The notes below the pieces were generated by a model. It was given only the letters and a program-made list of their open reading frames with translations, did not search any database and was not told the DNA's origin. From the NCBI GenBank assembly GCA_000004985.1, contig GG738991.1: a stretch of DNA of 13,674 nucleotides, one strand, 5' to 3'. Below, piece by piece: positions 1 through 13,674 of the stretch (position 1 is its first letter; each line of letters opens with the position of its first letter). A program made the translations under genes and the position numbers. Source of the DNA: Naegleria gruberi. Its lineage: Eukaryota.

Positions 1-80
1 ACCAAATTGAGTATATTTTGAAGAGGAAGATATTTTTCTAAATAAAGGACCACCACTGTCTCCACTGCAAGCATCCCTTC
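1..80 (-). CDS. Serine protease exon 2, partial; carries the active-site Ser motif DACSGDSGGP
   Basis: After splicing, the minus-strand translation is G-RDACSGDSGGPLFRKISSSSKYTQFG and continues past coordinate 1. GDSGGP is the S1 catalytic Ser signature. Asp six residues before the Ser (D189 equivalent) predicts trypsin-like Arg/Lys specificity. The exon is open to the window edge. Confidence 0.8.
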
Positions 81-126
81 CTATGAAAATTATTGAAATT
101 CACTTTCTAAAATTGTAAAAACTTAC
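81..126 (-). other. 46-nt spliceosomal intron (GTAAGT ... TTTTCATAG) of the serine protease gene
   Basis: On the minus strand the intron reads GTAAGTTTTTACAATTTTAGAAAGTGAATTTCAATAATTTTCATAG. It has a canonical donor, a pyrimidine-rich 3' end with AG, and is 46 nt long. Removing it fuses the frames as ...GAGNG|RDACSGDSGGP. Confidence 0.8.
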
Positions 127-769
127 CATTTCCAGCTCCTGCACAAATTTGTTCAATATTAACTCCACCCAAATTCAAATTATTACAATATGACATTTTA
201 ACAATTGGAACAGATGCCTTTTGTAACTTTTTAGGATAATCCAAGTTAGAATTCAAAGCTCCCCAACCAGAAATTAAAACTAATCTAGAAGAATCACTTT
301 CCTCATCATGAATTGCAATTGAATTTGCATCAATAGAAACTGTACTAACAGTTGAATCATCAATTGGCAATGCACTTTCAAGTTCAAATACAGCAATGTC
401 ATTTCTTTCTGTTCCTTTCTGATAGGAAGGATGAGCAATTTGATTTTTGACTTTGATGTATTTACAATTATCTGAACATGTATTATCATAAGTTCCGTAA
501 ACAACAACAAGTGTTGTAGATGAGTCTAAACAGTGAGCAGCTGTCAATACAAATGTACTCGATAGGATACTTCCTGTACAGAGATGTTCGAAAGCTCCGG
601 ACGAAAGTTGTTTTTGAATGGAAACAATGAAAGGAAATTCGTGTTCACCAGCAGTTTGACCATTTGCTACCTTGATGCCACGTTCATTATTTGGTGTAAC
701 TTGCAATTTTGCAGCCACAAGATGACAACTAAAAAATACAAGACAAATGACAGCTAAATATTTCAGCAT
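127..769 (-). CDS. Secreted trypsin-like (S1/chymotrypsin family) serine protease, exon 1
   Basis: ATG at 769..767, preceded on the coding strand by A7. The N-terminus MLKYLAVICLVFFSCHLVAA is hydrophobic and looks like a signal peptide. Catalytic His lies in LTAAHC and catalytic Asp in NDIAVFEL, with the Cys spacing expected for S1 proteases. The ORF-track frame (107..769) is broken at 127/126 by a GTAAGT donor: the last exon base is 127 (first base of a Gly codon). TAA/TGA usage, and a downstream exon carrying the Ser motif, support this. Confidence 0.85.
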
Positions 770-987: not shown

Positions 988-993
988 TTTATT
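988..993 (-). promoter_or_regulatory. Putative poly(A) signal AATAAA overlapping the stop codon of the RG-rich gene
   Basis: Plus-strand TTTATT at 988..993 reads AATAAA on the minus strand and overlaps the TAA stop at 991..989. This is consistent with a very short 3' UTR. Confidence 0.3.
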
Positions 994-2128
994 GAGTATC
1001 TTGATTTTCAGACATGATATCAGCTGCAATTCTTCTCGACGCATTTTCAATTCCATAAAGTTTGACATATTGAGTGGCGACAAGTCTGTCCAATTCACAA
1101 CCATTTCTATCATAACAAATACCTAACATGCCTTCAACTTCCTCTAAATTTGCTCCATTTCCTCTCGTTCTCAAGCATGGAGCAATTTTTTCACATCCAT
1201 AATAGTAAAATTGTTTCTTACACTTACTAAAAATGGAACGTCTATCCAAACCATTCCATCTTTTCAGGCAATCAACTCTACATGCCACACAAGATGTTTG
1301 TTTATCAGAAACGAATGGAATTGGAGGAAGTCTTTGAGTGTGAGGTCCTAAAAATCCGTCAAATTTCTTCTTGGCCTTGAACATGATATTGAGAGCTTCC
1401 ATTGTAAATGGAATATGTAAACCTTCTCCTCCTGATTTGGTTCTATTGTTTTTAGTTTCCTTGGATTCTTGTTGTTGTTGTTGTTGAGTTGTTTTAGTTT
1501 TGGAGGTTCGTCTAGCAGTAACCGAAACTCTTCCCAAATCGGTTGGTGACTTGTTGGTAGCTTTAGCTTTGGTTGCTGCAGATCTTCTTGCTCCCTTAGA
1601 AGAAGCAGATGATGATGACGAAGAAGCTTTTCCACCTCTACTCTTTCCACTGTTTCTTCCACTGTTTCTTCCAGATCTTGAGGATGATCTTGATCCACTT
1701 ATACTTCCTCTGCTTCCTCTACCTCTTCCACTTCCTCTACTTCCTCTACTTCCTCTTCCAGAAGATGATCTTGAACCACCTTTGCTTCCTCTACTTCCTT
1801 TACCACCTCTGGATCCTCTACTTCCTCTTGAACCACGTCCTCCTCTACCTCTACCTCCTCTTCCTCTACCACCTCTACCACCACCACGACCACGTCCACC
1901 TCTTCCACCACCTCTGCCACCTTTCAAAGTGACAGCACTCAAGGTATTCAAGTGGTCCATGTCATCTTCTTGAAGAAGAGATTCTTCCTCAAGAGCATGT
2001 TGCAAGGTATTTCTTCTAAATTGACTGGAATCTTTAGGTAATGGATCAGAACAATTGGGTCTTGAACTATTAACTGTTTGGAAGTTGACCAAAAGTATGG
2101 AAACAACACAACATGCAAGAATTGACAA
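989..2128 (-). CDS. RG/RGG-repeat protein with a C-terminal Cys-rich domain of unknown family; 5' end unresolved (next to N block)
   Basis: A 379-codon open frame ends at TAA 991..989. The track's start at 2128 is TTG, not ATG, and an in-frame TAA lies just upstream at 2134..2132. The first in-frame ATG is at residue 56 (MDHL...). The protein contains about 80 residues of GGRGGGRGGRGRGG/RGSRGSRG repeats, a poly-Ser stretch, Q6 and a basic linker. These are followed by about 140 residues with 10 Cys (CVACRVDC ... KCKKQFYYYGCEKIAPC ... CYDRNGCELDRL). Codon usage (AGA/CGT Arg, GGA/GGT Gly, CCA Pro) matches the neighbouring genes. Confidence 0.6.
   Translation of the reverse strand: MSILACCVVSILLVNFQTVNSSRPNCSDPLPKDSSQFRRNTLQHALEEESLLQEDDMDHLNTLSAVTLKGGRGGGRGGRGRGGGRGGRGRGGRGRGGRGSRGSRGSRGGKGSRGSKGGSRSSSGRGSRGSRGSGRGRGSRGSISGSRSSSRSGRNSGRNSGKSRGGKASSSSSSASSKGARRSAATKAKATNKSPTDLGRVSVTARRTSKTKTTQQQQQQESKETKNNRTKSGGEGLHIPFTMEALNIMFKAKKKFDGFLGPHTQRLPPIPFVSDKQTSCVACRVDCLKRWNGLDRRSIFSKCKKQFYYYGCEKIAPCLRTRGNGANLEEVEGMLGICYDRNGCELDRLVATQYVKLYGIENASRRIAADIMSENQDTQ
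1469..1486 (-). repeat. (CAA)6 trinucleotide repeat encoding Gln6 inside the RG-rich CDS
   Basis: Plus-strand (TTG)6 at 1469..1486. Confidence 0.9.
1606..1924 (-). repeat. Coding low-complexity repeat (RGG / RGS / SRG units) with strong 3-nt periodicity
   Basis: The plus strand is dominated by cctct(a/t)cc and cttcc units. All four overlapping ORFs in the track (1500..1973 +, 1609..1932 +, 1699..1920 -, 1348..1698 -) are alternative-frame readings of this repeat. Confidence 0.75.
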
Positions 2129-2154
2129 ATCTTACTGCCTAACATTTTTTTACA

Positions 2155-5100
2155 NNNNNNNNNNNNNNNNNNNNNNNNNNNNNNNNNNNNNNNNNNNNNN
2201 NNNNNNNNNNNNNNNNNNNNNNNNNNNNNNNNNNNNNNNNNNNNNNNNNNNNNNNNNNNNNNNNNNNNNNNNNNNNNNNNNNNNNNNNNNNNNNNNNNNN
2301 NNNNNNNNNNNNNNNNNNNNNNNNNNNNNNNNNNNNNNNNNNNNNNNNNNNNNNNNNNNNNNNNNNNNNNNNNNNNNNNNNNNNNNNNNNNNNNNNNNNN
2401 NNNNNNNNNNNNNNNNNNNNNNNNNNNNNNNNNNNNNNNNNNNNNNNNNNNNNNNNNNNNNNNNNNNNNNNNNNNNNNNNNNNNNNNNNNNNNNNNNNNN
2501 NNNNNNNNNNNNNNNNNNNNNNNNNNNNNNNNNNNNNNNNNNNNNNNNNNNNNNNNNNNNNNNNNNNNNNNNNNNNNNNNNNNNNNNNNNNNNNNNNNNN
2601 NNNNNNNNNNNNNNNNNNNNNNNNNNNNNNNNNNNNNNNNNNNNNNNNNNNNNNNNNNNNNNNNNNNNNNNNNNNNNNNNNNNNNNNNNNNNNNNNNNNN
2701 NNNNNNNNNNNNNNNNNNNNNNNNNNNNNNNNNNNNNNNNNNNNNNNNNNNNNNNNNNNNNNNNNNNNNNNNNNNNNNNNNNNNNNNNNNNNNNNNNNNN
2801 NNNNNNNNNNNNNNNNNNNNNNNNNNNNNNNNNNNNNNNNNNNNNNNNNNNNNNNNNNNNNNNNNNNNNNNNNNNNNNNNNNNNNNNNNNNNNNNNNNNN
2901 NNNNNNNNNNNNNNNNNNNNNNNNNNNNNNNNNNNNNNNNNNNNNNNNNNNNNNNNNNNNNNNNNNNNNNNNNNNNNNNNNNNNNNNNNNNNNNNNNNNN
3001 NNNNNNNNNNNNNNNNNNNNNNNNNNNNNNNNNNNNNNNNNNNNNNNNNNNNNNNNNNNNNNNNNNNNNNNNNNNNNNNNNNNNNNNNNNNNNNNNNNNN
3101 NNNNNNNNNNNNNNNNNNNNNNNNNNNNNNNNNNNNNNNNNNNNNNNNNNNNNNNNNNNNNNNNNNNNNNNNNNNNNNNNNNNNNNNNNNNNNNNNNNNN
3201 NNNNNNNNNNNNNNNNNNNNNNNNNNNNNNNNNNNNNNNNNNNNNNNNNNNNNNNNNNNNNNNNNNNNNNNNNNNNNNNNNNNNNNNNNNNNNNNNNNNN
3301 NNNNNNNNNNNNNNNNNNNNNNNNNNNNNNNNNNNNNNNNNNNNNNNNNNNNNNNNNNNNNNNNNNNNNNNNNNNNNNNNNNNNNNNNNNNNNNNNNNNN
3401 NNNNNNNNNNNNNNNNNNNNNNNNNNNNNNNNNNNNNNNNNNNNNNNNNNNNNNNNNNNNNNNNNNNNNNNNNNNNNNNNNNNNNNNNNNNNNNNNNNNN
3501 NNNNNNNNNNNNNNNNNNNNNNNNNNNNNNNNNNNNNNNNNNNNNNNNNNNNNNNNNNNNNNNNNNNNNNNNNNNNNNNNNNNNNNNNNNNNNNNNNNNN
3601 NNNNNNNNNNNNNNNNNNNNNNNNNNNNNNNNNNNNNNNNNNNNNNNNNNNNNNNNNNNNNNNNNNNNNNNNNNNNNNNNNNNNNNNNNNNNNNNNNNNN
3701 NNNNNNNNNNNNNNNNNNNNNNNNNNNNNNNNNNNNNNNNNNNNNNNNNNNNNNNNNNNNNNNNNNNNNNNNNNNNNNNNNNNNNNNNNNNNNNNNNNNN
3801 NNNNNNNNNNNNNNNNNNNNNNNNNNNNNNNNNNNNNNNNNNNNNNNNNNNNNNNNNNNNNNNNNNNNNNNNNNNNNNNNNNNNNNNNNNNNNNNNNNNN
3901 NNNNNNNNNNNNNNNNNNNNNNNNNNNNNNNNNNNNNNNNNNNNNNNNNNNNNNNNNNNNNNNNNNNNNNNNNNNNNNNNNNNNNNNNNNNNNNNNNNNN
4001 NNNNNNNNNNNNNNNNNNNNNNNNNNNNNNNNNNNNNNNNNNNNNNNNNNNNNNNNNNNNNNNNNNNNNNNNNNNNNNNNNNNNNNNNNNNNNNNNNNNN
4101 NNNNNNNNNNNNNNNNNNNNNNNNNNNNNNNNNNNNNNNNNNNNNNNNNNNNNNNNNNNNNNNNNNNNNNNNNNNNNNNNNNNNNNNNNNNNNNNNNNNN
4201 NNNNNNNNNNNNNNNNNNNNNNNNNNNNNNNNNNNNNNNNNNNNNNNNNNNNNNNNNNNNNNNNNNNNNNNNNNNNNNNNNNNNNNNNNNNNNNNNNNNN
4301 NNNNNNNNNNNNNNNNNNNNNNNNNNNNNNNNNNNNNNNNNNNNNNNNNNNNNNNNNNNNNNNNNNNNNNNNNNNNNNNNNNNNNNNNNNNNNNNNNNNN
4401 NNNNNNNNNNNNNNNNNNNNNNNNNNNNNNNNNNNNNNNNNNNNNNNNNNNNNNNNNNNNNNNNNNNNNNNNNNNNNNNNNNNNNNNNNNNNNNNNNNNN
4501 NNNNNNNNNNNNNNNNNNNNNNNNNNNNNNNNNNNNNNNNNNNNNNNNNNNNNNNNNNNNNNNNNNNNNNNNNNNNNNNNNNNNNNNNNNNNNNNNNNNN
4601 NNNNNNNNNNNNNNNNNNNNNNNNNNNNNNNNNNNNNNNNNNNNNNNNNNNNNNNNNNNNNNNNNNNNNNNNNNNNNNNNNNNNNNNNNNNNNNNNNNNN
4701 NNNNNNNNNNNNNNNNNNNNNNNNNNNNNNNNNNNNNNNNNNNNNNNNNNNNNNNNNNNNNNNNNNNNNNNNNNNNNNNNNNNNNNNNNNNNNNNNNNNN
4801 NNNNNNNNNNNNNNNNNNNNNNNNNNNNNNNNNNNNNNNNNNNNNNNNNNNNNNNNNNNNNNNNNNNNNNNNNNNNNNNNNNNNNNNNNNNNNNNNNNNN
4901 NNNNNNNNNNNNNNNNNNNNNNNNNNNNNNNNNNNNNNNNNNNNNNNNNNNNNNNNNNNNNNNNNNNNNNNNNNNNNNNNNNNNNNNNNNNNNNNNNNNN
5001 NNNNNNNNNNNNNNNNNNNNNNNNNNNNNNNNNNNNNNNNNNNNNNNNNNNNNNNNNNNNNNNNNNNNNNNNNNNNNNNNNNNNNNNNNNNNNNNNNNNN

Positions 5101-5992
5101 NNNNNNNNNNNNNNNNNNNNNNNNNNNNNNNNNNNNNNNNNNNNNNNNNNNNNNNNNNNNNNNNNNNNNNNNNNNNNNNNNNNNNNNNNNNNNNNNNNNN
5201 NNNNNNNNNNNNNNNNNNNNNNNNNNNNNNNNNNNNNNNNNNNNNNNNNNNNNNNNNNNNNNNNNNNNNNNNNNNNNNNNNNNNNNNNNNNNNNNNNNNN
5301 NNNNNNNNNNNNNNNNNNNNNNNNNNNNNNNNNNNNNNNNNNNNNNNNNNNNNNNNNNNNNNNNNNNNNNNNNNNNNNNNNNNNNNNNNNNNNNNNNNNN
5401 NNNNNNNNNNNNNNNNNNNNNNNNNNNNNNNNNNNNNNNNNNNNNNNNNNNNNNNNNNNNNNNNNNNNNNNNNNNNNNNNNNNNNNNNNNNNNNNNNNNN
5501 NNNNNNNNNNNNNNNNNNNNNNNNNNNNNNNNNNNNNNNNNNNNNNNNNNNNNNNNNNNNNNNNNNNNNNNNNNNNNNNNNNNNNNNNNNNNNNNNNNNN
5601 NNNNNNNNNNNNNNNNNNNNNNNNNNNNNNNNNNNNNNNNNNNNNNNNNNNNNNNNNNNNNNNNNNNNNNNNNNNNNNNNNNNNNNNNNNNNNNNNNNNN
5701 NNNNNNNNNNNNNNNNNNNNNNNNNNNNNNNNNNNNNNNNNNNNNNNNNNNNNNNNNNNNNNNNNNNNNNNNNNNNNNNNNNNNNNNNNNNNNNNNNNNN
5801 NNNNNNNNNNNNNNNNNNNNNNNNNNNNNNNNNNNNNNNNNNNNNNNNNNNNNNNNNNNNNNNNNNNNNNNNNNNNNNNNNNNNNNNNNNNNNNNNNNNN
5901 NNNNNNNNNNNNNNNNNNNNNNNNNNNNNNNNNNNNNNNNNNNNNNNNNNNNNNNNNNNNNNNNNNNNNNNNNNNNNNNNNNNNNNNNNNNN
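2155..5992. other. Unresolved sequence (3838 N): assembly gap or hard-masked region
   Basis: A continuous N run. Coding sequence runs into it from the right edge, and the RG-rich gene's 5' region leaves it at the left edge. Confidence 1.
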
Positions 5993-6393
5993 TCATTTTC
6001 TTCACTTTCTCTCATGGAAGCCCACACCTGCATATCATCAAACACTTCCACACTCGAATCTTCAAACAAATGATGATTCGAACAACAAACCTCCCTAGCA
6101 AACTCTTCGTGTCTCTGGCAACAAAATTTCTCCAACAATTTGACTTGTTCTTTCGCTTCATCTCTCACTCGGAATAACATGGGACTTTTTAATATTAACC
6201 TCCACATGATGATCAATAGGTAGTGTCCTAATTTTCTTGAACCTTCGATTGTTAAATCCAATCCGACGTGAATTGGTTGTGTGAATCTGTTTAAATCGAA
6301 TAGATCGTCACGACATTCATATTCCGAATCGGATTCATAGTGATCGGTGCATGAGCTAGCATGAGGGAAACAGTGCGTGAGGAATAGCGACAT
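5993..6393 (-). CDS. N-terminal 133 codons of a protein-coding gene running into the N block (partial)
   Basis: A true ATG at 6393..6391 sits in the context AATTTAAAAAAA-ATG. The frame is open to the N boundary. The translation MSLFLTHCFPHASSCTDHYESDSEYECRDDLFDLNRFTQPIHVGLDLTIEGSRKLGHYLLIIMWRLILKSPMLFRVRDEAKEQVKLLEKFCCQRHEEFAREVCCSNHHLFEDSSVEVFDDMQVWASMRESEEN has balanced, non-repetitive composition. I could not assign a family. Confidence 0.55.
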
Positions 6394-6496
6394 TTTTTTT
6401 AAATTGGTGTGGCAAAGTGCAATATTTACTTTAGACTATTCTATAGTCATAATGATTAAGGAAATAAATCCTCTCAAATATTGAACCTATTCAATG

Positions 6497-6843
6497 TTAA
6501 ACCTTAAAAGCAAGTGAAGAATATCTTGAGGGAATAAAGAAATCTTCACTGTAAAAAGCCTTCAAACGTTGATTCAATAATTCCTTGAAAATCTTGTAAA
6601 TTATTTTAGCATCATGATATTGATATAGTAATGAAGATTCAAACCAGCCCCAAGATTTCAAAGCTTCCATAGCTAATTCTTCATCTTCATCCTCTTCCAT
6701 CGTCATTTCTCGAATCATTTGGTAAGTAAAGCAATTTCTCCTGACAAGGTTGACTAAGAAATCCCTGTCCAACAAGACTTGTTCTGGAATAAGATCAGCC
6801 AAATGACCTCCAAAAGGAGAACCAGCACACATTAAAATCACAT
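6497..6843 (-). CDS. Terminal coding exon of a minus-strand gene (about 115 codons, stop TAA 6499..6497); product unknown
   Basis: The track's start at 6841 is GTG, not ATG, and an in-frame stop lies just upstream at 6853..6851. On the coding strand, TCTTTAG|AT sits immediately 5' (acceptor AG at 6845..6844), so the exon probably begins at 6843 in phase 1. The translation is (V)ILMCAGSPFGGHLADLIPEQVLLDRDFLVNLVRRNCFTYQMIREMTMEEDEDEELAMEALKSWGWFESSLLYQYHDAKIIYKIFKELLNQRLKAFYSEDFFIPSRYSSLAFKV. Alternatively the protein could start at the internal ATG at 6832..6830. Confidence 0.5.
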
Positions 6844-7008
6844 CTAAAGACTACCCACTCTCTCTTTTTACCAGTGAGTAGTTTTGTGTATAATTATATT
6901 TTTCTGTGCTCTTTGTTGAATTTGAGAAATGAATTTTAGGTGGTGAAAAATCAATGTTGTCAATCCAACAGTCAAATTAATCATCACGATCTGCTTGTAC
7001 CTCCTCAC

Positions 7009-7139
7009 ATAGCCTCACATAATCATCACAATTTTGGGCTAGTGCTTTCAATAGGTCTGGTTTGTGTTTGAGTAATCCTATTTGGACATCATTAGGTAAT
7101 TTTGTCAACACGTTGATGTAATGGGTGTTACTTTTACAA
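7009..7139 (-). CDS. Putative internal exon of the same gene, (S)CKSNTHYINVLTKLPNDVQIGLLKHKPDLLKALAQNCDDYVRL
   Basis: The minus-strand frame is open from 7141 down to TAA 6979..6977 (54 codons, no ATG). An acceptor-like CCTGAAG precedes 7139. A GTGAGG donor at 7008..7003 leaves one exon base (T at 7009), which matches the phase-1 acceptor at 6844. Splicing out this 165-nt intron gives ...DDYVRL-Y-VILMCAGSPFGG... This phase match is the main evidence. No upstream exon was identified. Confidence 0.25.
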
Positions 7140-7339
7140 CTTCAGGCATGTGCTCAATAATACGATAGTCAATGTTATAATTAATTAATAGTTTGATGAA
7201 TTCAGAATCAAGAAATTGTGGTAGGCTTGTCAAATTTCCTTTTTAGAGTCTATTGAAAATGCATTAAATTTGTCAACTACATTATTGTCACAATGTTGTA
7301 AATTCCAACAACAAAAAATACCACAAAACAGATCCGAAA

Positions 7340-7361
7340 TTTACTGCCTTTTTACTGCCTT
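7340..7361. repeat. Tandem direct repeat TTTACTGCCTT x2
   Basis: Two 11-mers at 7340..7350 and 7351..7361, about 90 bp upstream of the ATG at 7450. The core TTACTGCCT also occurs at 2132..2140. Confidence 0.8.
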
Positions 7362-7424
7362 CCGAATCACGTACATACATTTTCAATAATAATAATTTAA
7401 ATATCACAGGATCACTACAGTCAA

Positions 7425-7451
7425 CATCATCATCATCATCATCATCATCAT
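7425..7451 (+). repeat. (CAT)9 microsatellite directly abutting and overlapping the start codon
   Basis: Nine perfect CAT units at 7425..7451. The last unit supplies the AT of ATG at 7450. In the ATG frame it reads ATC codons upstream, closed by a TAA at 7393..7395, so it is 5' UTR rather than a His or Ile tract. Confidence 0.95.
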
Positions 7452-7968
7452 GGTCAAACACTCCGTCAAGAAACTCATTCCACTGAGTAGAGAAGAATAT
7501 TGGAAAATAATATTTACTGATGATTTTGATAAATTCACAGCTCCTCTGCTCAAATTCAACAAAATTGAAACTGAAACACTTCCAAGTGAAGATGTCAATA
7601 TTGTCAAGAGAACTGCCAAAGTATTTCCAGATTATGACATTCCCCATGCATTGTTGCACTTGTTAGGTCAGGAAGAATTTCACTATGTCGATCATCAGGA
7701 AAAGCATTTATTGAACTATACCATGAATAGTAATACTATGCCTCCACTGAGTCATCACGATATTCTAAAGATCAGTACTCATCAACATATTGAACCAATT
7801 GACGATCATAGTTGTTATCATGTTTTGGAAACAGAAATTCACTGTTCTGTGTTGTTACTTGGTCACTTGGTTGAGAAGGCAATTATTCATGGTGTTGAGA
7901 ATGGTTATGATTTATTGCCAAAAGCCGTGGAAGCTTACATTGCTCATTTGAATTCGGAAGTAAAATAA
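7450..7968 (+). CDS. 172-aa protein; tentatively SRPBCC (START / Bet v1-like, COQ10/polyketide-cyclase-like) fold
   Basis: ATG 7450 to TAA 7966..7968. In-frame TAA upstream at 7393. Composition is diverse (MVKHSVKKLIPLSREEYWKIIFTDDFDKFTAPLLKFNK ... LVEKAIIHGVENGYDLLPKAVEAYIAHLNSEVK). I recalled from memory that the N-terminal segment ...SREEYWKIIFTDDFDKFTAP resembles polyketide_cyc / COQ10-type START domains. This is a weak match. The competing minus ORFs 7288..7659 and 7404..7619 are low-complexity and include the D8 reading of the CAT repeat. Confidence 0.6.
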   Translation: MVKHSVKKLIPLSREEYWKIIFTDDFDKFTAPLLKFNKIETETLPSEDVNIVKRTAKVFPDYDIPHALLHLLGQEEFHYVDHQEKHLLNYTMNSNTMPPLSHHDILKISTHQHIEPIDDHSCYHVLETEIHCSVLLLGHLVEKAIIHGVENGYDLLPKAVEAYIAHLNSEVK

Positions 7969-8036
7969 GAAAATACTTGAATTTGAACCACTCTATTTTT
8001 AAAAAGCTATGAAAATGAATGTGCATATTTGAAATT

Positions 8037-8128
8037 GAAGAGGTTCATTTTCGTAAGTGAAGAAGAGGTTCAAATTCAAACAGAAGTCTGAATATGAAGC
8101 TGTGGTTGTGGAGGTTCAAATTGAAAGC
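8037..8128. promoter_or_regulatory. Three spaced copies of the motif GAGGTTCA(A/T)(A/T)TT in the intergenic promoter region
   Basis: Copies are GAAGAGGTTCATTTTCG at 8037..8053, GAAGAGGTTCAAATTCAAAC at 8062..8081 and GGAGGTTCAAATTGAAAGC at 8110..8128, with related TTCAAATT / GAAATTGAA words nearby. They sit 120-210 bp upstream of the ATG at 8251 and downstream of the stop of the 7450 gene. A TATTTAAATAA TATA-like element lies at 8233..8243. Confidence 0.4.
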
Positions 8129-8250
8129 AAGCAAATTTAGCTCTATTTAAACAAGCTCTCAGGTATTCTCACTCCATCAAACAAACAAAAAAAACAACAA
8201 ATTAACTAACAGCTCAATATTCAAATACAGATTATTTAAATAATTACAAT

Positions 8251-8317
8251 ATGGTCAAGTTCAGTAAAGAAATACTCGAAAGACTCTTACTCGACAGTAA
8301 CAAGATTCGTAACATAG
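8251..8317 (+). CDS. Start of a plus-strand gene (22 codons visible) entering the N block; N-terminus fits a leucine-rich-repeat pattern
   Basis: ATG at 8251 with A at -3, preceded by the TATA-like element and the motif array. MVKFSKEILERLLLDSNKIRNI contains LxxLxLxxNxIxxI. The remainder is masked. Confidence 0.35.
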
Positions 8318-11300
8318 NNNNNNNNNNNNNNNNNNNNNNNNNNNNNNNNNNNNNNNNNNNNNNNNNNNNNNNNNNNNNNNNNNNNNNNNNNNNNNNNNNN
8401 NNNNNNNNNNNNNNNNNNNNNNNNNNNNNNNNNNNNNNNNNNNNNNNNNNNNNNNNNNNNNNNNNNNNNNNNNNNNNNNNNNNNNNNNNNNNNNNNNNNN
8501 NNNNNNNNNNNNNNNNNNNNNNNNNNNNNNNNNNNNNNNNNNNNNNNNNNNNNNNNNNNNNNNNNNNNNNNNNNNNNNNNNNNNNNNNNNNNNNNNNNNN
8601 NNNNNNNNNNNNNNNNNNNNNNNNNNNNNNNNNNNNNNNNNNNNNNNNNNNNNNNNNNNNNNNNNNNNNNNNNNNNNNNNNNNNNNNNNNNNNNNNNNNN
8701 NNNNNNNNNNNNNNNNNNNNNNNNNNNNNNNNNNNNNNNNNNNNNNNNNNNNNNNNNNNNNNNNNNNNNNNNNNNNNNNNNNNNNNNNNNNNNNNNNNNN
8801 NNNNNNNNNNNNNNNNNNNNNNNNNNNNNNNNNNNNNNNNNNNNNNNNNNNNNNNNNNNNNNNNNNNNNNNNNNNNNNNNNNNNNNNNNNNNNNNNNNNN
8901 NNNNNNNNNNNNNNNNNNNNNNNNNNNNNNNNNNNNNNNNNNNNNNNNNNNNNNNNNNNNNNNNNNNNNNNNNNNNNNNNNNNNNNNNNNNNNNNNNNNN
9001 NNNNNNNNNNNNNNNNNNNNNNNNNNNNNNNNNNNNNNNNNNNNNNNNNNNNNNNNNNNNNNNNNNNNNNNNNNNNNNNNNNNNNNNNNNNNNNNNNNNN
9101 NNNNNNNNNNNNNNNNNNNNNNNNNNNNNNNNNNNNNNNNNNNNNNNNNNNNNNNNNNNNNNNNNNNNNNNNNNNNNNNNNNNNNNNNNNNNNNNNNNNN
9201 NNNNNNNNNNNNNNNNNNNNNNNNNNNNNNNNNNNNNNNNNNNNNNNNNNNNNNNNNNNNNNNNNNNNNNNNNNNNNNNNNNNNNNNNNNNNNNNNNNNN
9301 NNNNNNNNNNNNNNNNNNNNNNNNNNNNNNNNNNNNNNNNNNNNNNNNNNNNNNNNNNNNNNNNNNNNNNNNNNNNNNNNNNNNNNNNNNNNNNNNNNNN
9401 NNNNNNNNNNNNNNNNNNNNNNNNNNNNNNNNNNNNNNNNNNNNNNNNNNNNNNNNNNNNNNNNNNNNNNNNNNNNNNNNNNNNNNNNNNNNNNNNNNNN
9501 NNNNNNNNNNNNNNNNNNNNNNNNNNNNNNNNNNNNNNNNNNNNNNNNNNNNNNNNNNNNNNNNNNNNNNNNNNNNNNNNNNNNNNNNNNNNNNNNNNNN
9601 NNNNNNNNNNNNNNNNNNNNNNNNNNNNNNNNNNNNNNNNNNNNNNNNNNNNNNNNNNNNNNNNNNNNNNNNNNNNNNNNNNNNNNNNNNNNNNNNNNNN
9701 NNNNNNNNNNNNNNNNNNNNNNNNNNNNNNNNNNNNNNNNNNNNNNNNNNNNNNNNNNNNNNNNNNNNNNNNNNNNNNNNNNNNNNNNNNNNNNNNNNNN
9801 NNNNNNNNNNNNNNNNNNNNNNNNNNNNNNNNNNNNNNNNNNNNNNNNNNNNNNNNNNNNNNNNNNNNNNNNNNNNNNNNNNNNNNNNNNNNNNNNNNNN
9901 NNNNNNNNNNNNNNNNNNNNNNNNNNNNNNNNNNNNNNNNNNNNNNNNNNNNNNNNNNNNNNNNNNNNNNNNNNNNNNNNNNNNNNNNNNNNNNNNNNNN
10001 NNNNNNNNNNNNNNNNNNNNNNNNNNNNNNNNNNNNNNNNNNNNNNNNNNNNNNNNNNNNNNNNNNNNNNNNNNNNNNNNNNNNNNNNNNNNNNNNNNNN
10101 NNNNNNNNNNNNNNNNNNNNNNNNNNNNNNNNNNNNNNNNNNNNNNNNNNNNNNNNNNNNNNNNNNNNNNNNNNNNNNNNNNNNNNNNNNNNNNNNNNNN
10201 NNNNNNNNNNNNNNNNNNNNNNNNNNNNNNNNNNNNNNNNNNNNNNNNNNNNNNNNNNNNNNNNNNNNNNNNNNNNNNNNNNNNNNNNNNNNNNNNNNNN
10301 NNNNNNNNNNNNNNNNNNNNNNNNNNNNNNNNNNNNNNNNNNNNNNNNNNNNNNNNNNNNNNNNNNNNNNNNNNNNNNNNNNNNNNNNNNNNNNNNNNNN
10401 NNNNNNNNNNNNNNNNNNNNNNNNNNNNNNNNNNNNNNNNNNNNNNNNNNNNNNNNNNNNNNNNNNNNNNNNNNNNNNNNNNNNNNNNNNNNNNNNNNNN
10501 NNNNNNNNNNNNNNNNNNNNNNNNNNNNNNNNNNNNNNNNNNNNNNNNNNNNNNNNNNNNNNNNNNNNNNNNNNNNNNNNNNNNNNNNNNNNNNNNNNNN
10601 NNNNNNNNNNNNNNNNNNNNNNNNNNNNNNNNNNNNNNNNNNNNNNNNNNNNNNNNNNNNNNNNNNNNNNNNNNNNNNNNNNNNNNNNNNNNNNNNNNNN
10701 NNNNNNNNNNNNNNNNNNNNNNNNNNNNNNNNNNNNNNNNNNNNNNNNNNNNNNNNNNNNNNNNNNNNNNNNNNNNNNNNNNNNNNNNNNNNNNNNNNNN
10801 NNNNNNNNNNNNNNNNNNNNNNNNNNNNNNNNNNNNNNNNNNNNNNNNNNNNNNNNNNNNNNNNNNNNNNNNNNNNNNNNNNNNNNNNNNNNNNNNNNNN
10901 NNNNNNNNNNNNNNNNNNNNNNNNNNNNNNNNNNNNNNNNNNNNNNNNNNNNNNNNNNNNNNNNNNNNNNNNNNNNNNNNNNNNNNNNNNNNNNNNNNNN
11001 NNNNNNNNNNNNNNNNNNNNNNNNNNNNNNNNNNNNNNNNNNNNNNNNNNNNNNNNNNNNNNNNNNNNNNNNNNNNNNNNNNNNNNNNNNNNNNNNNNNN
11101 NNNNNNNNNNNNNNNNNNNNNNNNNNNNNNNNNNNNNNNNNNNNNNNNNNNNNNNNNNNNNNNNNNNNNNNNNNNNNNNNNNNNNNNNNNNNNNNNNNNN
11201 NNNNNNNNNNNNNNNNNNNNNNNNNNNNNNNNNNNNNNNNNNNNNNNNNNNNNNNNNNNNNNNNNNNNNNNNNNNNNNNNNNNNNNNNNNNNNNNNNNNN

Positions 11301-12182
11301 NNNNNNNNNNNNNNNNNNNNNNNNNNNNNNNNNNNNNNNNNNNNNNNNNNNNNNNNNNNNNNNNNNNNNNNNNNNNNNNNNNNNNNNNNNNNNNNNNNNN
11401 NNNNNNNNNNNNNNNNNNNNNNNNNNNNNNNNNNNNNNNNNNNNNNNNNNNNNNNNNNNNNNNNNNNNNNNNNNNNNNNNNNNNNNNNNNNNNNNNNNNN
11501 NNNNNNNNNNNNNNNNNNNNNNNNNNNNNNNNNNNNNNNNNNNNNNNNNNNNNNNNNNNNNNNNNNNNNNNNNNNNNNNNNNNNNNNNNNNNNNNNNNNN
11601 NNNNNNNNNNNNNNNNNNNNNNNNNNNNNNNNNNNNNNNNNNNNNNNNNNNNNNNNNNNNNNNNNNNNNNNNNNNNNNNNNNNNNNNNNNNNNNNNNNNN
11701 NNNNNNNNNNNNNNNNNNNNNNNNNNNNNNNNNNNNNNNNNNNNNNNNNNNNNNNNNNNNNNNNNNNNNNNNNNNNNNNNNNNNNNNNNNNNNNNNNNNN
11801 NNNNNNNNNNNNNNNNNNNNNNNNNNNNNNNNNNNNNNNNNNNNNNNNNNNNNNNNNNNNNNNNNNNNNNNNNNNNNNNNNNNNNNNNNNNNNNNNNNNN
11901 NNNNNNNNNNNNNNNNNNNNNNNNNNNNNNNNNNNNNNNNNNNNNNNNNNNNNNNNNNNNNNNNNNNNNNNNNNNNNNNNNNNNNNNNNNNNNNNNNNNN
12001 NNNNNNNNNNNNNNNNNNNNNNNNNNNNNNNNNNNNNNNNNNNNNNNNNNNNNNNNNNNNNNNNNNNNNNNNNNNNNNNNNNNNNNNNNNNNNNNNNNNN
12101 NNNNNNNNNNNNNNNNNNNNNNNNNNNNNNNNNNNNNNNNNNNNNNNNNNNNNNNNNNNNNNNNNNNNNNNNNNNNNNNNNN
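8318..12182. other. Unresolved sequence (3865 N): assembly gap or hard-masked region
   Basis: A continuous N run. A plus-strand gene (8251) and a minus-strand gene (12381) read into it from opposite sides. Confidence 1.
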
Positions 12183-12381
12183 AAATTATTTCAAAACAAA
12201 TATCATCTGAAAATATTTCTTGTTCGAGTTTCACATGCTTTTTTGCTTTCTCTTCCATATTATTATTATTATTATTATTGTTGGTGAATATTTCCTCCGA
12301 ACTAATTAATTGATGATTTTCAAAATCTTGTCTGTTTCGTTTGCTCATTTTTTTTAAATTCATGTTAAGGCTTTGATTCAT
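12183..12381 (-). CDS. N-terminal 66 codons of a minus-strand gene running into the N block; contains an Asn8 tract
   Basis: A true ATG at 12381..12379 (weak context). Further in-frame ATGs lie at 12363 and 12348; the last one has the same AATTTAAAAAAA-ATG context as the 6393 gene. The translation is MNQSLNMNLKKMSKRNRQDFENHQLISSEEIFTNNNNNNNNMEEKAKKHVKLEQEIFSDDICFEII. The frame is open to the N boundary. Confidence 0.5.
12259..12279 (-). repeat. (AAT)7 trinucleotide repeat (plus-strand ATT) encoding the poly-Asn tract
   Basis: Plus-strand (ATT)7 at 12259..12279. With the adjacent AAC it encodes N8. Confidence 0.95.
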
Positions 12382-12613: not shown

Positions 12614-12686
12614 GGGGATGTAGCTCACATGGTAGAGCGCTTCTTTAGCATGGAAGAGGTACGGGGATCGATACCCCGCATCTCCA
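12614..12686 (+). tRNA. tRNA-Ala, anticodon AGC, 73 nt, no intron, CCA not encoded
   Basis: The sequence folds by hand into a cloverleaf. Acceptor GGGGATG pairs with CATCTCC, including the G3:U70 wobble pair that marks Ala identity. D stem GCTC/GAGC. Anticodon stem CTTCT/GGAAG with loop TTAGCAT, giving anticodon AGC. T stem CGGGG/CCCCG with loop ATCGATA (B-box-like GGATCGATACC). Discriminator A. An A-box-like TAGCTCACATGG is present. The overall sequence closely resembles animal cytoplasmic tRNA-Ala(AGC). Confidence 0.93.
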
Positions 12687-12693
12687 CTCAATC

Positions 12694-12698: not shown

Positions 12699-13122
12699 AT
12701 TCACACCAGCTTTACGATTTCATTGTTGTGTTTGGTTCAACTCAGCGATTATTGGTCACTTGAATTTTCTGGTCAAGGAGCTCCATAAAATAAACAAAAT
12801 AATTGACCCAGTTAAAAAGTATACAACAATAAATGTTGCTTTTAATAATTAACCACAAGTGTCATTTTTAAATTGATCAAAATTCAAAAGTGATAAATAG
12901 ATGGTGATCAAGCAAGATCTATTTCTTCAACAACCTGTTTCGCATTGAACAAAACAAGATTCGTCAAAAGAACTCTTGAATTCACTGTTCATACAGTCAA
13001 AGACTGTAGCGGGATTGTCGCCATATTCCTGGCAGGCTTCCCGTCCAAATTATTAATTGAAAATCTTATGAGAACAGTATCCTTCATCATGTACTAACAA
13101 AAAAACTTTGTTGTTCTTGATA

Positions 13123-13164: not shown

Positions 13165-13674
13165 CTAGGCCAATTCAACATCAGTGGCACCAGCCATAAT
13201 TAAATCTTTTGCCAATGAAGCAGATGCTTTCTTCTTCATCATGATTACAATAGTTGTAATCAATACAGCAACACCACTTCCAATAACTGCAACAGAAACA
13301 ATTGGAACAACAACTGCTGCAACAATCACTCCTGTATTCTCACTGTGTACTGAATCAATAGCAAGAAAAGGAAGCGAAGTCAATCTTGCTGAAATCTGAG
13401 GATTGTTTTTTAGTTGAAGTGAAAGAGCTGTTTCAGTTTCAACTCTGAAGGAAATGAGCGTCGAGTTGAGGGAAAGAGCTGCTTTTGCTGTTAAGGAACC
13501 TGTTTTGGAAAGAGAGGCTGGTAGATTAAATGGAATGGAAGATGTCAGCTGTTGGTGGACAGTTGAAGAGGAATCAAATTGACCATCTAATAGGAATTCA
13601 ATAAAAATGTTAATGGATTGGTTGACATAATAATCAAGAAATGAAGAATCTGAATGAAAGAGAAATAATGGTGA
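13165..13674 (-). CDS. C-terminal region (170 or more codons, partial) of a type I single-pass membrane protein
   Basis: The minus frame is open from the window edge (13674) to TAG 13167..13165. I checked every codon by hand and found no stop. The track's start at 13383 is TTG. The translation is ...SPLFLFHSDSSFLDYYVNQSINIFIEFLLDGQFDSSSTVHQQLTSSIPFNLPASLSKTGSLTAKAALSLNSTLISFRVETETALSLQLKNNPQISARLTSLPFLAIDSVHSENTG, then a 27-residue hydrophobic helix VIVAAVVVPIVSVAVIGSGVAVLITTIVIMM, then KKK and a short tail ASASLAKDLIMAGATDVELA. N-glycosylation sequons NQS and NST lie in the ectodomain. A minus-strand AATAAA follows. Confidence 0.55.
   Translation of the reverse strand, partial: SPLFLFHSDSSFLDYYVNQSINIFIEFLLDGQFDSSSTVHQQLTSSIPFNLPASLSKTGSLTAKAALSLNSTLISFRVETETALSLQLKNNPQISARLTSLPFLAIDSVHSENTGVIVAAVVVPIVSVAVIGSGVAVLITTIVIMMKKKASASLAKDLIMAGATDVELA

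What the first reader, a model, noticed from the sequence alone, without database searches (positions are those of the whole stretch)
2155..12182. Two similar-sized N blocks (3838 and 3865 nt) hide the bodies of at least three or four genes
At every edge of the N blocks, coding sequence continues into the mask:
- Block 1, right edge: a gene with a genuine ATG at 6393 reads leftwards into it.
- Block 1, left edge: the RG-rich gene emerges without a start codon.
- Block 2: a plus-strand gene (ATG 8251, LRR-like N-terminus) and a minus-strand gene (ATG 12381, Asn8 tract) converge inside it.
The blocks are therefore not empty spacer or simple repeat filler. They contain roughly 1.9-3.8 kb of protein-coding sequence each. 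The lengths differ by only 27 nt and both are 1 mod 3. That could mean deliberate masking of comparable units, or it could be coincidence. Nothing inside can be described from this window.
Basis: partly seen in the sequence, partly recalled or inferred. Interest (0 to 1): 0.5.

Follow-up and report, generated by a model that had tools for sequence, protein, structure and literature searches.

The report
Sequence gaps in a Naegleria scaffold
The two long runs of N are missing sequence in a stretch of Naegleria gruberi nuclear DNA, not a biological structure, and they hide ordinary amoeba genes, one of which can be named from public data.

Summary
They are missing data, not biology.

The window is nuclear DNA of Naegleria gruberi or a variant about 99% identical. 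The 133 codons read from ATG 6393 into block 1 equal the start of N. gruberi NAEGRDRAFT_71992, a 673-aa F-box protein. The neighbouring 172-aa ORF is 170/172 identical to NAEGRDRAFT_71991.

A metagenome contig (L004) is 99.1% identical over 5993-7001 and runs a further 2 kb. By this proxy, block 1 hides:
- the remaining ~1.6 kb of the intronless F-box gene,
- a 5S rRNA gene,
- the start of one more gene.

The other three edges hold up unevenly:
- The 12381 gene (66 open codons) is probably real.
- The 8251 "gene" (22 codons) is unproven.
- The RG-rich gene probably does not run into the mask. Its frame has a TAA before the edge, and ATG 2145 plus a 62-nt GT-AG intron completes it.

Block 2 could not be recovered.

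The N runs are most likely scaffold gaps with estimated sizes. Deliberate masking is the second possibility. Repeat hard-masking is unlikely. Interest is low. One aside: the hidden F-box protein carries an H2A-like histone fold.

The parts
2155..5992 (.). N block 1, 3838 nt of missing sequence
   Evidence: regex over the window
8318..12182 (.). N block 2, 3865 nt of missing sequence
5993..6393 (-). First 133 codons of an F-box gene, the counterpart of N. gruberi NAEGRDRAFT_71992 / XP_002672893.1 (673 aa)
   Evidence: Identical to P0007 residues 1-133. Representative search E=1.1e-79 to paralogue P0004. Names.
4372..5992 (-). INFERRED, hidden: the remaining ~540 codons of the F-box gene (H2A-like histone fold, F-box, C-terminal domain). 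Coordinates assume an intronless gene of 673 codons.
   Evidence: P0007 length. L004 carries an intronless 667-codon copy and is 99.1% identical to window 5993-7001.
4216..4346 (+). INFERRED, hidden: 5S rRNA gene just downstream of the F-box stop, approximate position by proxy
   Evidence: Rfam RF00001, 103 bits, E=2.9e-22 at L004 2650-2768 (-). Mapped to the window.
2155..4053 (-). INFERRED, hidden: a further minus-strand gene that starts near 4041-4053 (MLTNNQELVSIILDSNFKSDSLKSI... in L004), plus the upstream region of the RG-rich gene. Extent unknown.
   Evidence: L004 2943-3019, aaaaaaaATG context. Mapping.
989..2145 (-). RG/RGG-rich gene with a Cys-rich C-terminal domain. Proposed start ATG 2145, exon 1 at 2145-2136, intron 2135-2074 (62 nt, GT-AG), exon 2 at 2073-989.
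   Evidence: Frames and the TAA at 2134-2132. Splice model gives an intact 364-aa product. A 46-nt GTAAGT...CATAG intron in the trypsin gene (126-81) restores the GDSGGP motif. The model itself is an inference.
8251..8317 (+). Possible gene start, 22 codons (MVKFSKEILERLLLDSNKIRNI) with an LRR-like pattern
   Evidence: No Pfam match. Homology to L003 stops at 8102.
12183..12381 (-). Probable gene start, 66 codons with an Asn8 run, reading into block 2
   Evidence: No relatives found.
7450..7968 (+). 172-aa gene between the blocks, homologue of N. gruberi NAEGRDRAFT_71991 and 71970. Its N. fowleri orthologue is named PRELI/MSF1 domain-containing.
6497..7233 (-). DUF4116-like ORF fragments in different frames: a disrupted or multi-exon gene between the F-box gene and the 172-aa gene
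   Evidence: The same 111-aa ORF is in L004 170-505.
12614..12687 (+). tRNA-Ala(AGC)
1..769 (-). Trypsin-family serine protease gene, cut by the left end of the window, with one 46-nt intron at 126-81
   Evidence: Pfam PF00089 E=1.7e-28. Splice.

Best explanation
The two N runs are stretches of unknown sequence in a genome assembly, not a feature of the organism.

The window is nuclear DNA of the amoeboflagellate Naegleria gruberi, or a variant about 99% identical. It corresponds to the NAEGRDRAFT_71991/71992 locus of the NEG-M reference. It reads as three short contigs (2154, 2325 and 1492 nt) joined across two unsequenced intervals. The N lengths are most likely gap-size estimates from paired reads. 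The 13.7-kb window is probably a whole small scaffold, such as an alternative haplotype or a duplicate copy of a recently duplicated region.

This genome is gene-dense, so any 3.8 kb must hold one to three genes and contig ends fall inside ORFs.

Shown:
- the identity of the gene entering block 1 from 6393 (an F-box protein of 673 aa);
- that a near-identical copy elsewhere continues with the rest of that gene, a 5S rRNA gene and another gene start.

Inferred:
- that the window's own hidden sequence matches that proxy;
- that the N lengths are estimates rather than a mask;
- the splice model that completes the RG-rich gene outside the mask.
For: Source:
- 133/133 identity to the start of XP_002672893.1.
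- 170/172 identity to NAEGRDRAFT_71991. Its first exon, MGVTFTTSG, is also present at window 7121.
- 71991/71992 and D2VSM4/D2VSM5 are consecutive identifiers on one 499,907-bp scaffold, matching the gene order in the window.
- GC is 34-37% against the 35% reported for N. gruberi (PMC9928731).

The window is not the reference locus itself:
- two substitutions in the 172-aa ORF;
- an intact ATG 7450 frame where the 71991 model needs an upstream exon;
- a His run of different length;
- none of the window's complete ORFs is an annotated protein.

The region is recently duplicated, which is where assemblers break:
- F-box paralogues 71992 and 69196 sit in one 90%-identity cluster on different scaffolds;
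- the 172-aa gene has two copies on one scaffold;
- L004 is 99.1% identical over 5993-7001.

Block edges ignore gene and domain boundaries: codon 133, codon 22 and codon 66. The window is short, and its contigs are 1.5-2.3 kb.

Hidden content by proxy.
Against: - I could not read the source record or its AGP.
- The reference locus has a complete 673-aa model with no X, so the sequence is known there. If the window were cut from a newer version of that locus, the Ns would be a mask laid over known sequence.
- Two independent gap estimates within 27 nt of each other is a mild coincidence.
- The tool descriptions say that some stretches in one collection are deliberately masked, so masking does occur in this data environment.
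- The F-box ORF is error-free right up to the edge, whereas low-coverage contig ends often carry errors.
Confidence: 0.6

Rival explanations
1. Deliberate hard mask. Whoever prepared the window replaced two stretches of known sequence with N, for example to withhold them. The lengths are then exact, and the hidden sequence is simply the N. gruberi sequence at this locus.
For: - The counterpart gene is fully sequenced in the reference, with a 673-aa model and no X.
- N. gruberi proteins are known to the listing of cluster members and the representative search. Yet search for homologous proteins missed a 131/133-identical cluster representative, and the look-up of encoding contigs reports them 'not on record'. 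This looks as if the source genome is being withheld.
- The search for related loci description states that a few stretches of one collection are masked as N.
- The two lengths are nearly equal.
Against: - The window differs from the reference 71991 locus, so it is not simply that record with a mask on it.
- The mask edges follow no gene, domain or repeat boundary.
- Nothing in the recoverable hidden content (F-box gene, 5S rRNA) suggests a reason to hide it, while comparable genes stay visible.
Confidence: 0.3
2. Repeat hard-masking. The blocks are interspersed repeats or transposons that RepeatMasker-type software replaced with N.
For: The F-box gene and the 172-aa gene belong to recently duplicated segments. 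A de novo repeat library could in principle flag these.
Against: - Simple and low-complexity repeats are left untouched: (TCA)10 at 7421-7451, (TAT)7 at 12258-12279, (TTG)6 at 1469-1486, and the 9-nt periodic RG array at 1645-1921.
- The visible 5993-7001 belongs to the same 99%-identical duplication yet is unmasked.
- The part of block 1 recovered by proxy is a host gene plus a 5S rRNA gene, not a transposon.
Confidence: 0.05
3. The two blocks hide two copies of one biological unit of about 3.85 kb, a tandem or dispersed duplication. That would explain the similar sizes.
For: The lengths differ by only 0.7%, and the region has a history of duplication.
Against: - The visible flanks of the two blocks share no similarity beyond AT-rich 20-mers.
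- The ORFs entering the two blocks are unrelated in sequence and arrangement: one minus-strand gene enters block 1, while convergent plus- and minus-strand starts enter block 2.
- If the N lengths are estimates, their equality says nothing.
Confidence: 0.05

Closest known systems
Sized scaffold gaps (runs of N whose length is estimated from read pairs) in draft eukaryotic assemblies such as the Sanger-era N. gruberi NEG-M assembly
   Same: - Pure N runs of arbitrary length between short contigs.
- Edges fall at arbitrary places inside genes.
- They lie in a recently duplicated region.
- The window is short enough to be a whole small scaffold.
   Different: Not verified against an AGP. The two lengths are unusually close to each other, and the ORF at the contig end is error-free.
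N. gruberi NEG-M locus NAEGRDRAFT_71991 / NAEGRDRAFT_71992 (D2VSM4 / D2VSM5) on a 499,907-bp scaffold
   Same: - The same two genes are adjacent.
- The F-box N-terminus is 133/133 identical.
- The 172-aa gene is 170/172 identical.
- The upstream exon sequence MGVTFTTSG is present.
   Different: - Two amino-acid substitutions.
- A 1-nt difference that keeps ATG 7450 in frame in the window.
- A longer His/(CAT) run.
So the window is an allele, another strain or a further copy, not that record.
ENA metagenome contig L004 (ERZ929261 k127_204561), an N. gruberi-like copy of the 69196-type F-box locus
   Same: 99.1% DNA identity over window 5993-7001. It has the same DUF4116-like ORF upstream, and the F-box gene continues without introns.
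   Different: It carries the two 3-nt deletions typical of paralogue 69196, so it is a proxy for block 1, not the same locus. It covers only about 2 kb of the 3.8 kb.

Membership tests
Assembly gap with estimated size | Uninterrupted run of N between otherwise normal sequence, with a length that is not a round placeholder (10, 100, 1000) | tested here: met
   3838 and 3865 N with no other ambiguity codes
Assembly gap with estimated size | Listed as a gap line in the source AGP or scaffold record | not testable with these tools
Assembly gap with estimated size | Edges unrelated to gene, domain or repeat boundaries | tested here: met
   Edges fall after codon 133, codon 22 and codon 66 of three ORFs, and 9 nt upstream of an ATG
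Repeat hard-masking (RepeatMasker/dust/TRF style) | Simple and low-complexity repeats also replaced by N | tested here: not met
   19 TRF rows of tandem repeats remain visible, including (TCA)10, (TAT)7 and the RG array
Repeat hard-masking (RepeatMasker/dust/TRF style) | Masked content is a repeat or mobile element | tested here: not met
   The proxy for the right half of block 1 is a host F-box gene plus a 5S rRNA gene. The left half and block 2 are unknown.
N. gruberi F-box family (NAEGRDRAFT_71992 / 69196 / 69753) | N-terminal region collinear with the family | tested here: met
   133/133 identity to P0007, 35% to P0006 at E=9e-11
N. gruberi F-box family (NAEGRDRAFT_71992 / 69196 / 69753) | F-box domain present in the window's own copy | not testable with these tools
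   The F-box lies at residues 314-359 of P0007, which falls inside block 1
Histone doublet (H2B-H2A fusion, as in Marseilleviridae) | H2A histone fold | tested here: met
   hhalign of the family profile against human H2A: probability 96.6%, E=6.9e-10, H2A residues 52-97. PDB profile search E=1.6e-10. Only alpha2-alpha3-alphaC are covered.
Histone doublet (H2B-H2A fusion, as in Marseilleviridae) | Complete H2B histone fold immediately upstream | tested here: inconclusive
   The H2B alpha3/alphaC-like GELAKH stretch scores E=0.0018, probability 14.6%. An alpha1-alpha2-like stretch at residues 35-73 is below threshold. About 80 residues are inserted between them.
Histone doublet (H2B-H2A fusion, as in Marseilleviridae) | Viral relatives or viral origin | tested here: not met
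   No relative in IMG/VR contigs with the family alignment

The most novel reading that the evidence does not exclude
The gene that disappears into block 1 belongs to a small Naegleria-specific family: three paralogues in NEG-M plus environmental copies.

Its members carry, in order:
- an H2B-C-terminus-like stretch,
- an H2A-like histone fold,
- an F-box,
- about 310 residues of unknown domain.

Such a protein could be an SCF ubiquitin-ligase adaptor that uses a histone-fold handshake to engage H2A-H2B dimers, their chaperones or nucleosomes. Pfam does not see the histone part. No paper in the held library describes it. This concerns the hidden gene, not the N blocks themselves.
Probability: 0.4. 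Interest if true: 0.45.

Novelty: not a real feature. Interest (0 to 1): 0.08.

Why it matters
It matters mainly as housekeeping. 56% of this window is missing data, and any 'ORF' drawn across the N runs is an artefact. No biological claim should rest on the block lengths or their phase.

The useful outcomes are these:
- The window is placed in N. gruberi.
- The gene at the block 1 edge is named.
- One of the four edge claims (the RG-rich gene) is corrected.

The only lead of wider interest is incidental. The hidden F-box protein family carries an unannotated H2A-like histone fold, which chromatin or ubiquitin researchers might want to examine in the public N. gruberi sequences.

Tried and rejected
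**Looking for the window itself**
- An exact 52-mer is absent from genome, viral and metagenome contigs.
- Exact-protein look-ups of six window ORFs and splice models found nothing.

**Protein searches**
- The search for homologous proteins with the 133-aa N-terminus and with the RG-rich C-terminal domain found nothing. The full HMMER representative search then found the N. gruberi family.
- Fetching the N. gruberi reference locus through P0004 and P0007 returned 'not on record'.

**Recovering block 2**
- JGI metagenomes with the 66-aa fragment: no relative.
- GTDB genomes with P0007, to test for a contaminated bacterial assembly: none.
- IMG/VR with the F-box family alignment: none.
- A literature search for the neighbouring locus tags found no papers.

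**Synteny in relatives**
- Only the 172-aa gene is shared with N. lovaniensis (L001) and with the ENA contigs L002 and L003.
- L003 diverges from the window on both sides of 7313-8102. These loci therefore say nothing about block 2.

**Structure of the F-box protein**
- The AlphaFold model from a 5-sequence alignment has mean pLDDT 38, so it is unusable and no fold search was run.
- Pfam at E up to 10 does not see the histone-like segment.

**Hypotheses rejected**
- Repeat hard-masking.
- Two copies of one unit.
Full report
**1. Observation**

The window holds exactly two N runs: 2155-5992 (3838 nt) and 8318-12182 (3865 nt). Both lengths are 1 mod 3. Together they make up 7703 of 13674 bases. 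The three readable segments are 2154, 2325 and 1492 nt at 34-37% GC. The 1300-1480-aa 'ORFs' that a mechanical ORF list draws across the blocks exist only because N codons translate to X.

**2. Source**

The readable sequence is eukaryotic:
- a trypsin-family gene (Pfam E=1.7e-28) interrupted by a 46-nt GTAAGT...CATAG intron whose removal restores the GDSGGP motif;
- a tRNA-Ala(AGC);
- poly-Asn, poly-His/Asp and RG tracts.

The 172-aa ORF at 7450-7968 hit a Naegleria lovaniensis protein at 63% identity and two metagenome proteins at 99% and 82%.

A full HMMER search with the 133 residues read from ATG 6393 found a 670-aa protein at 100% aligned identity. Its 90%-identity cluster holds two N. 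gruberi NEG-M proteins. One of them, NAEGRDRAFT_71992 (XP_002672893.1, D2VSM5, 673 aa, 'F-box domain-containing protein'), begins with exactly the window's 133 residues. Paralogue 69196 does not.

The cluster of the 172-aa ORF holds NAEGRDRAFT_71991 (D2VSM4) and 71970, both on the same 499,907-bp scaffold as 71992. The consecutive identifiers 71991/71992 and D2VSM4/D2VSM5 match the adjacency seen in the window. The first exon of the 71991 model (MGVTFTTSG) is present at window 7121. The reported N. gruberi GC content of 35% also agrees (PMC9928731).

The window is nevertheless not that reference locus itself:
- Its 172-aa ORF differs at I39V and D119E from 71991, 71970 and the metagenome copy (71970 differs at H86N as well).
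- Its ATG 7450 frame is intact where the 71991 model needs an upstream exon.
- The His run differs in length.
- None of six window ORFs or splice models is an annotated protein.

It is therefore an allele, another strain, or a further copy at about 99% identity.

**3. The four edges** (stop frequency 0.059 over all frames)

- *Block 1, right edge.* 133 sense codons from ATG 6393 run to the edge (chance about 3e-4 per frame) and are identical to a known protein. This edge is certain.
- *Block 2, right edge.* 66 codons run from ATG 12381 (chance about 0.02 per frame). An alternative aaaaaaaATG lies about 30 nt further in. This is probably a gene, but no relatives were found.
- *Block 2, left edge.* Only 22 codons run from ATG 8251 (chance about 0.26 per frame). 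The LxxLxLxxNxIxxI pattern is visible, but no Pfam LRR model matches. This is possible, not shown.
- *Block 1, left edge.* The RG-rich ORF has an in-frame TAA at 2134-2132, so its frame does not enter the mask. An ATG at 2145 has the same A-rich context as the trypsin and F-box starts. A 62-nt GTAAGA...AACAG intron (2135-2074) joins it to the RG frame and gives an intact 364-aa product. This is an inference. The alternative is a tiny first exon inside the mask with an acceptor at 2132-2131, which would keep the signal-peptide-like SILACCVVSILLV stretch. On balance this gene is probably complete in the visible sequence, and only its promoter is hidden.

**4. What block 1 hides, by proxy**

The metagenome contig L004 (3019 bp) aligns to window 5993-7001 at 99.1% and runs 2016 nt further. 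It carries:
- an intronless 667-codon F-box gene;
- a 5S rRNA gene on the opposite strand, 38 nt after the stop (Rfam 103 bits, E=2.9e-22);
- about 175 nt further on, a new aaaaaaaATG start on the F-box strand (MLTNNQELVSIILDSNFKSDSLKSI...).

Mapped to the window, with the 673-codon length of 71992, this gives:
- the F-box gene ending near 4372;
- the 5S rRNA gene near 4216-4346 (+);
- the next gene starting near 4041-4053 (-).

Up to about 1.9 kb is then left for that gene and the RG-rich gene's upstream region. L004 has the two 3-nt deletions of paralogue 69196, so it is a sister copy and not the same locus. The window's own hidden sequence is inferred, not read.

**5. Block 2**

Nothing could be recovered. 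The relatives that share the 172-aa gene (N. lovaniensis L001, ENA contigs L002 and L003) share nothing else with the window. L003 aligns only over 7313-8102 and then continues into an unrelated gene. Scans of JGI metagenomes, GTDB genomes and IMG/VR gave no relatives.

**6. What the N runs are**

Three readings were weighed.

*Scaffold gaps with estimated sizes (about 0.6).*
- The window differs from the annotated reference locus.
- It is short enough to be a whole small scaffold, made of 1.5-2.3-kb contigs.
- Its edges ignore gene and domain boundaries.
- It lies in recently duplicated sequence, which is where draft assemblers break. The F-box genes 71992 and 69196 share a 90%-identity cluster on two scaffolds. 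The 172-aa gene is present twice on one scaffold. L004 is 99.1% identical.

*A deliberate mask over known sequence (about 0.3).*
- The counterpart gene is fully sequenced in the reference.
- The two lengths are nearly equal.
- N. gruberi proteins are visible to two tools, yet search for homologous proteins missed them and the look-up of encoding contigs reports them 'not on record'. This suggests the source genome is being withheld.

*Repeat hard-masking (about 0.05).* This is unlikely. Tandem and low-complexity repeats are left untouched, and the visible part of the 99%-identical duplication is unmasked.

*Two hidden copies of one unit (about 0.05).* There is no support for this. The flanks share no similarity and the entering ORFs are unrelated.

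Under every reading the blocks are missing data. Their lengths and phase carry no biological meaning.

**7. Aside on the hidden gene**

- P0007 and the family profile match PDB histone chains. The best hits are engineered single-chain H2B-H2A fusions (E=2.7e-9 and 1.6e-10).
- hhalign against human H2A gives 96.6% probability and E=6.9e-10 over H2A residues 52-97.
- The preceding GELAKH stretch resembles the H2B C-terminus only weakly (E=0.0018).
- An H2B alpha1-alpha2-like stretch at residues 35-73 lies in the visible part of the window (about 6175-6291) but is below threshold.
- The motif is conserved in the 43%-identical paralogue 69753.
- Pfam sees only the F-box.
- No viral relative was found. 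An AlphaFold model from five sequences was unusable at pLDDT 38.
- Papers in the held library that mention both Naegleria and histone doublets do not describe such a protein.

**8. Verdict**

Novelty: not a real feature. Interest: low.

Noticed in passing
window 5993-6393 (-) and the hidden continuation; proteins P0007, P0004, P0006: The F-box protein family that enters block 1 contains an H2A-like histone fold (hhalign 96.6%, E=6.9e-10). An H2B-C-terminus-like GELAKH stretch precedes it. The best PDB matches are engineered H2B-H2A single-chain fusions. Pfam sees only the F-box, and no description was found in the literature searched.
   Followed up: partly
L004 2650-2768 (-), equivalent to about window 4216-4346 (+) inside block 1: A 5S rRNA gene (Rfam 103 bits) lies 38 nt downstream of the F-box gene in the near-identical metagenome copy. 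A dispersed 5S gene is therefore probably hidden in block 1.
   Followed up: partly
window 12982-13061 (+) and L002 2444-2524: A noncoding element of about 80 nt is 89% conserved between the window and an 82%-related Naegleria contig, while its flanks do not align. It folds into two hairpins (z=-4.8 and -5.0) with one compensatory A-U to U-A change. It has no Rfam match and sits at a different position relative to the 172-aa gene in the two genomes. It may be a small RNA gene.
   Followed up: partly
window 7313-8102 versus L003, L002, L001: The 172-aa gene sits on an island of about 0.8 kb that is conserved (94.7% to L003). Both flanks are unalignable even in this close relative. The NEG-M reference has two copies of the gene (71970, 71991) on one scaffold. 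This suggests local duplication and rearrangement around the gene.
   Followed up: partly
window 6497-7233 (-): DUF4116-like coding fragments lie in three different frames separated by stops, which indicates a disrupted gene or one with unresolved short introns. The last 111-aa ORF is conserved in L004.
   Followed up: no
window 989-2145 (-): This gene has a long RG/RGG and Ser-Arg-Gly low-complexity region built on a 9-nt periodic repeat, followed by a Cys-rich C-terminal domain of about 150 aa. It has no Pfam match and no homologue in the word-indexed search.
   Followed up: partly
tools, versus 34, 37, 46: N. gruberi reference proteins are returned by the representative search and by the cluster look-up. 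The search for homologous proteins missed them, and the look-up of encoding contigs reports them 'not on record'. The source genome appears to be withheld from some tools.
   Followed up: partly
window 13165-13674 (-): An ORF of at least 170 codons runs off the right end of the window. It ends in a single transmembrane helix and a short basic tail, so it looks like the C-terminus of a type I membrane protein.
   Followed up: no
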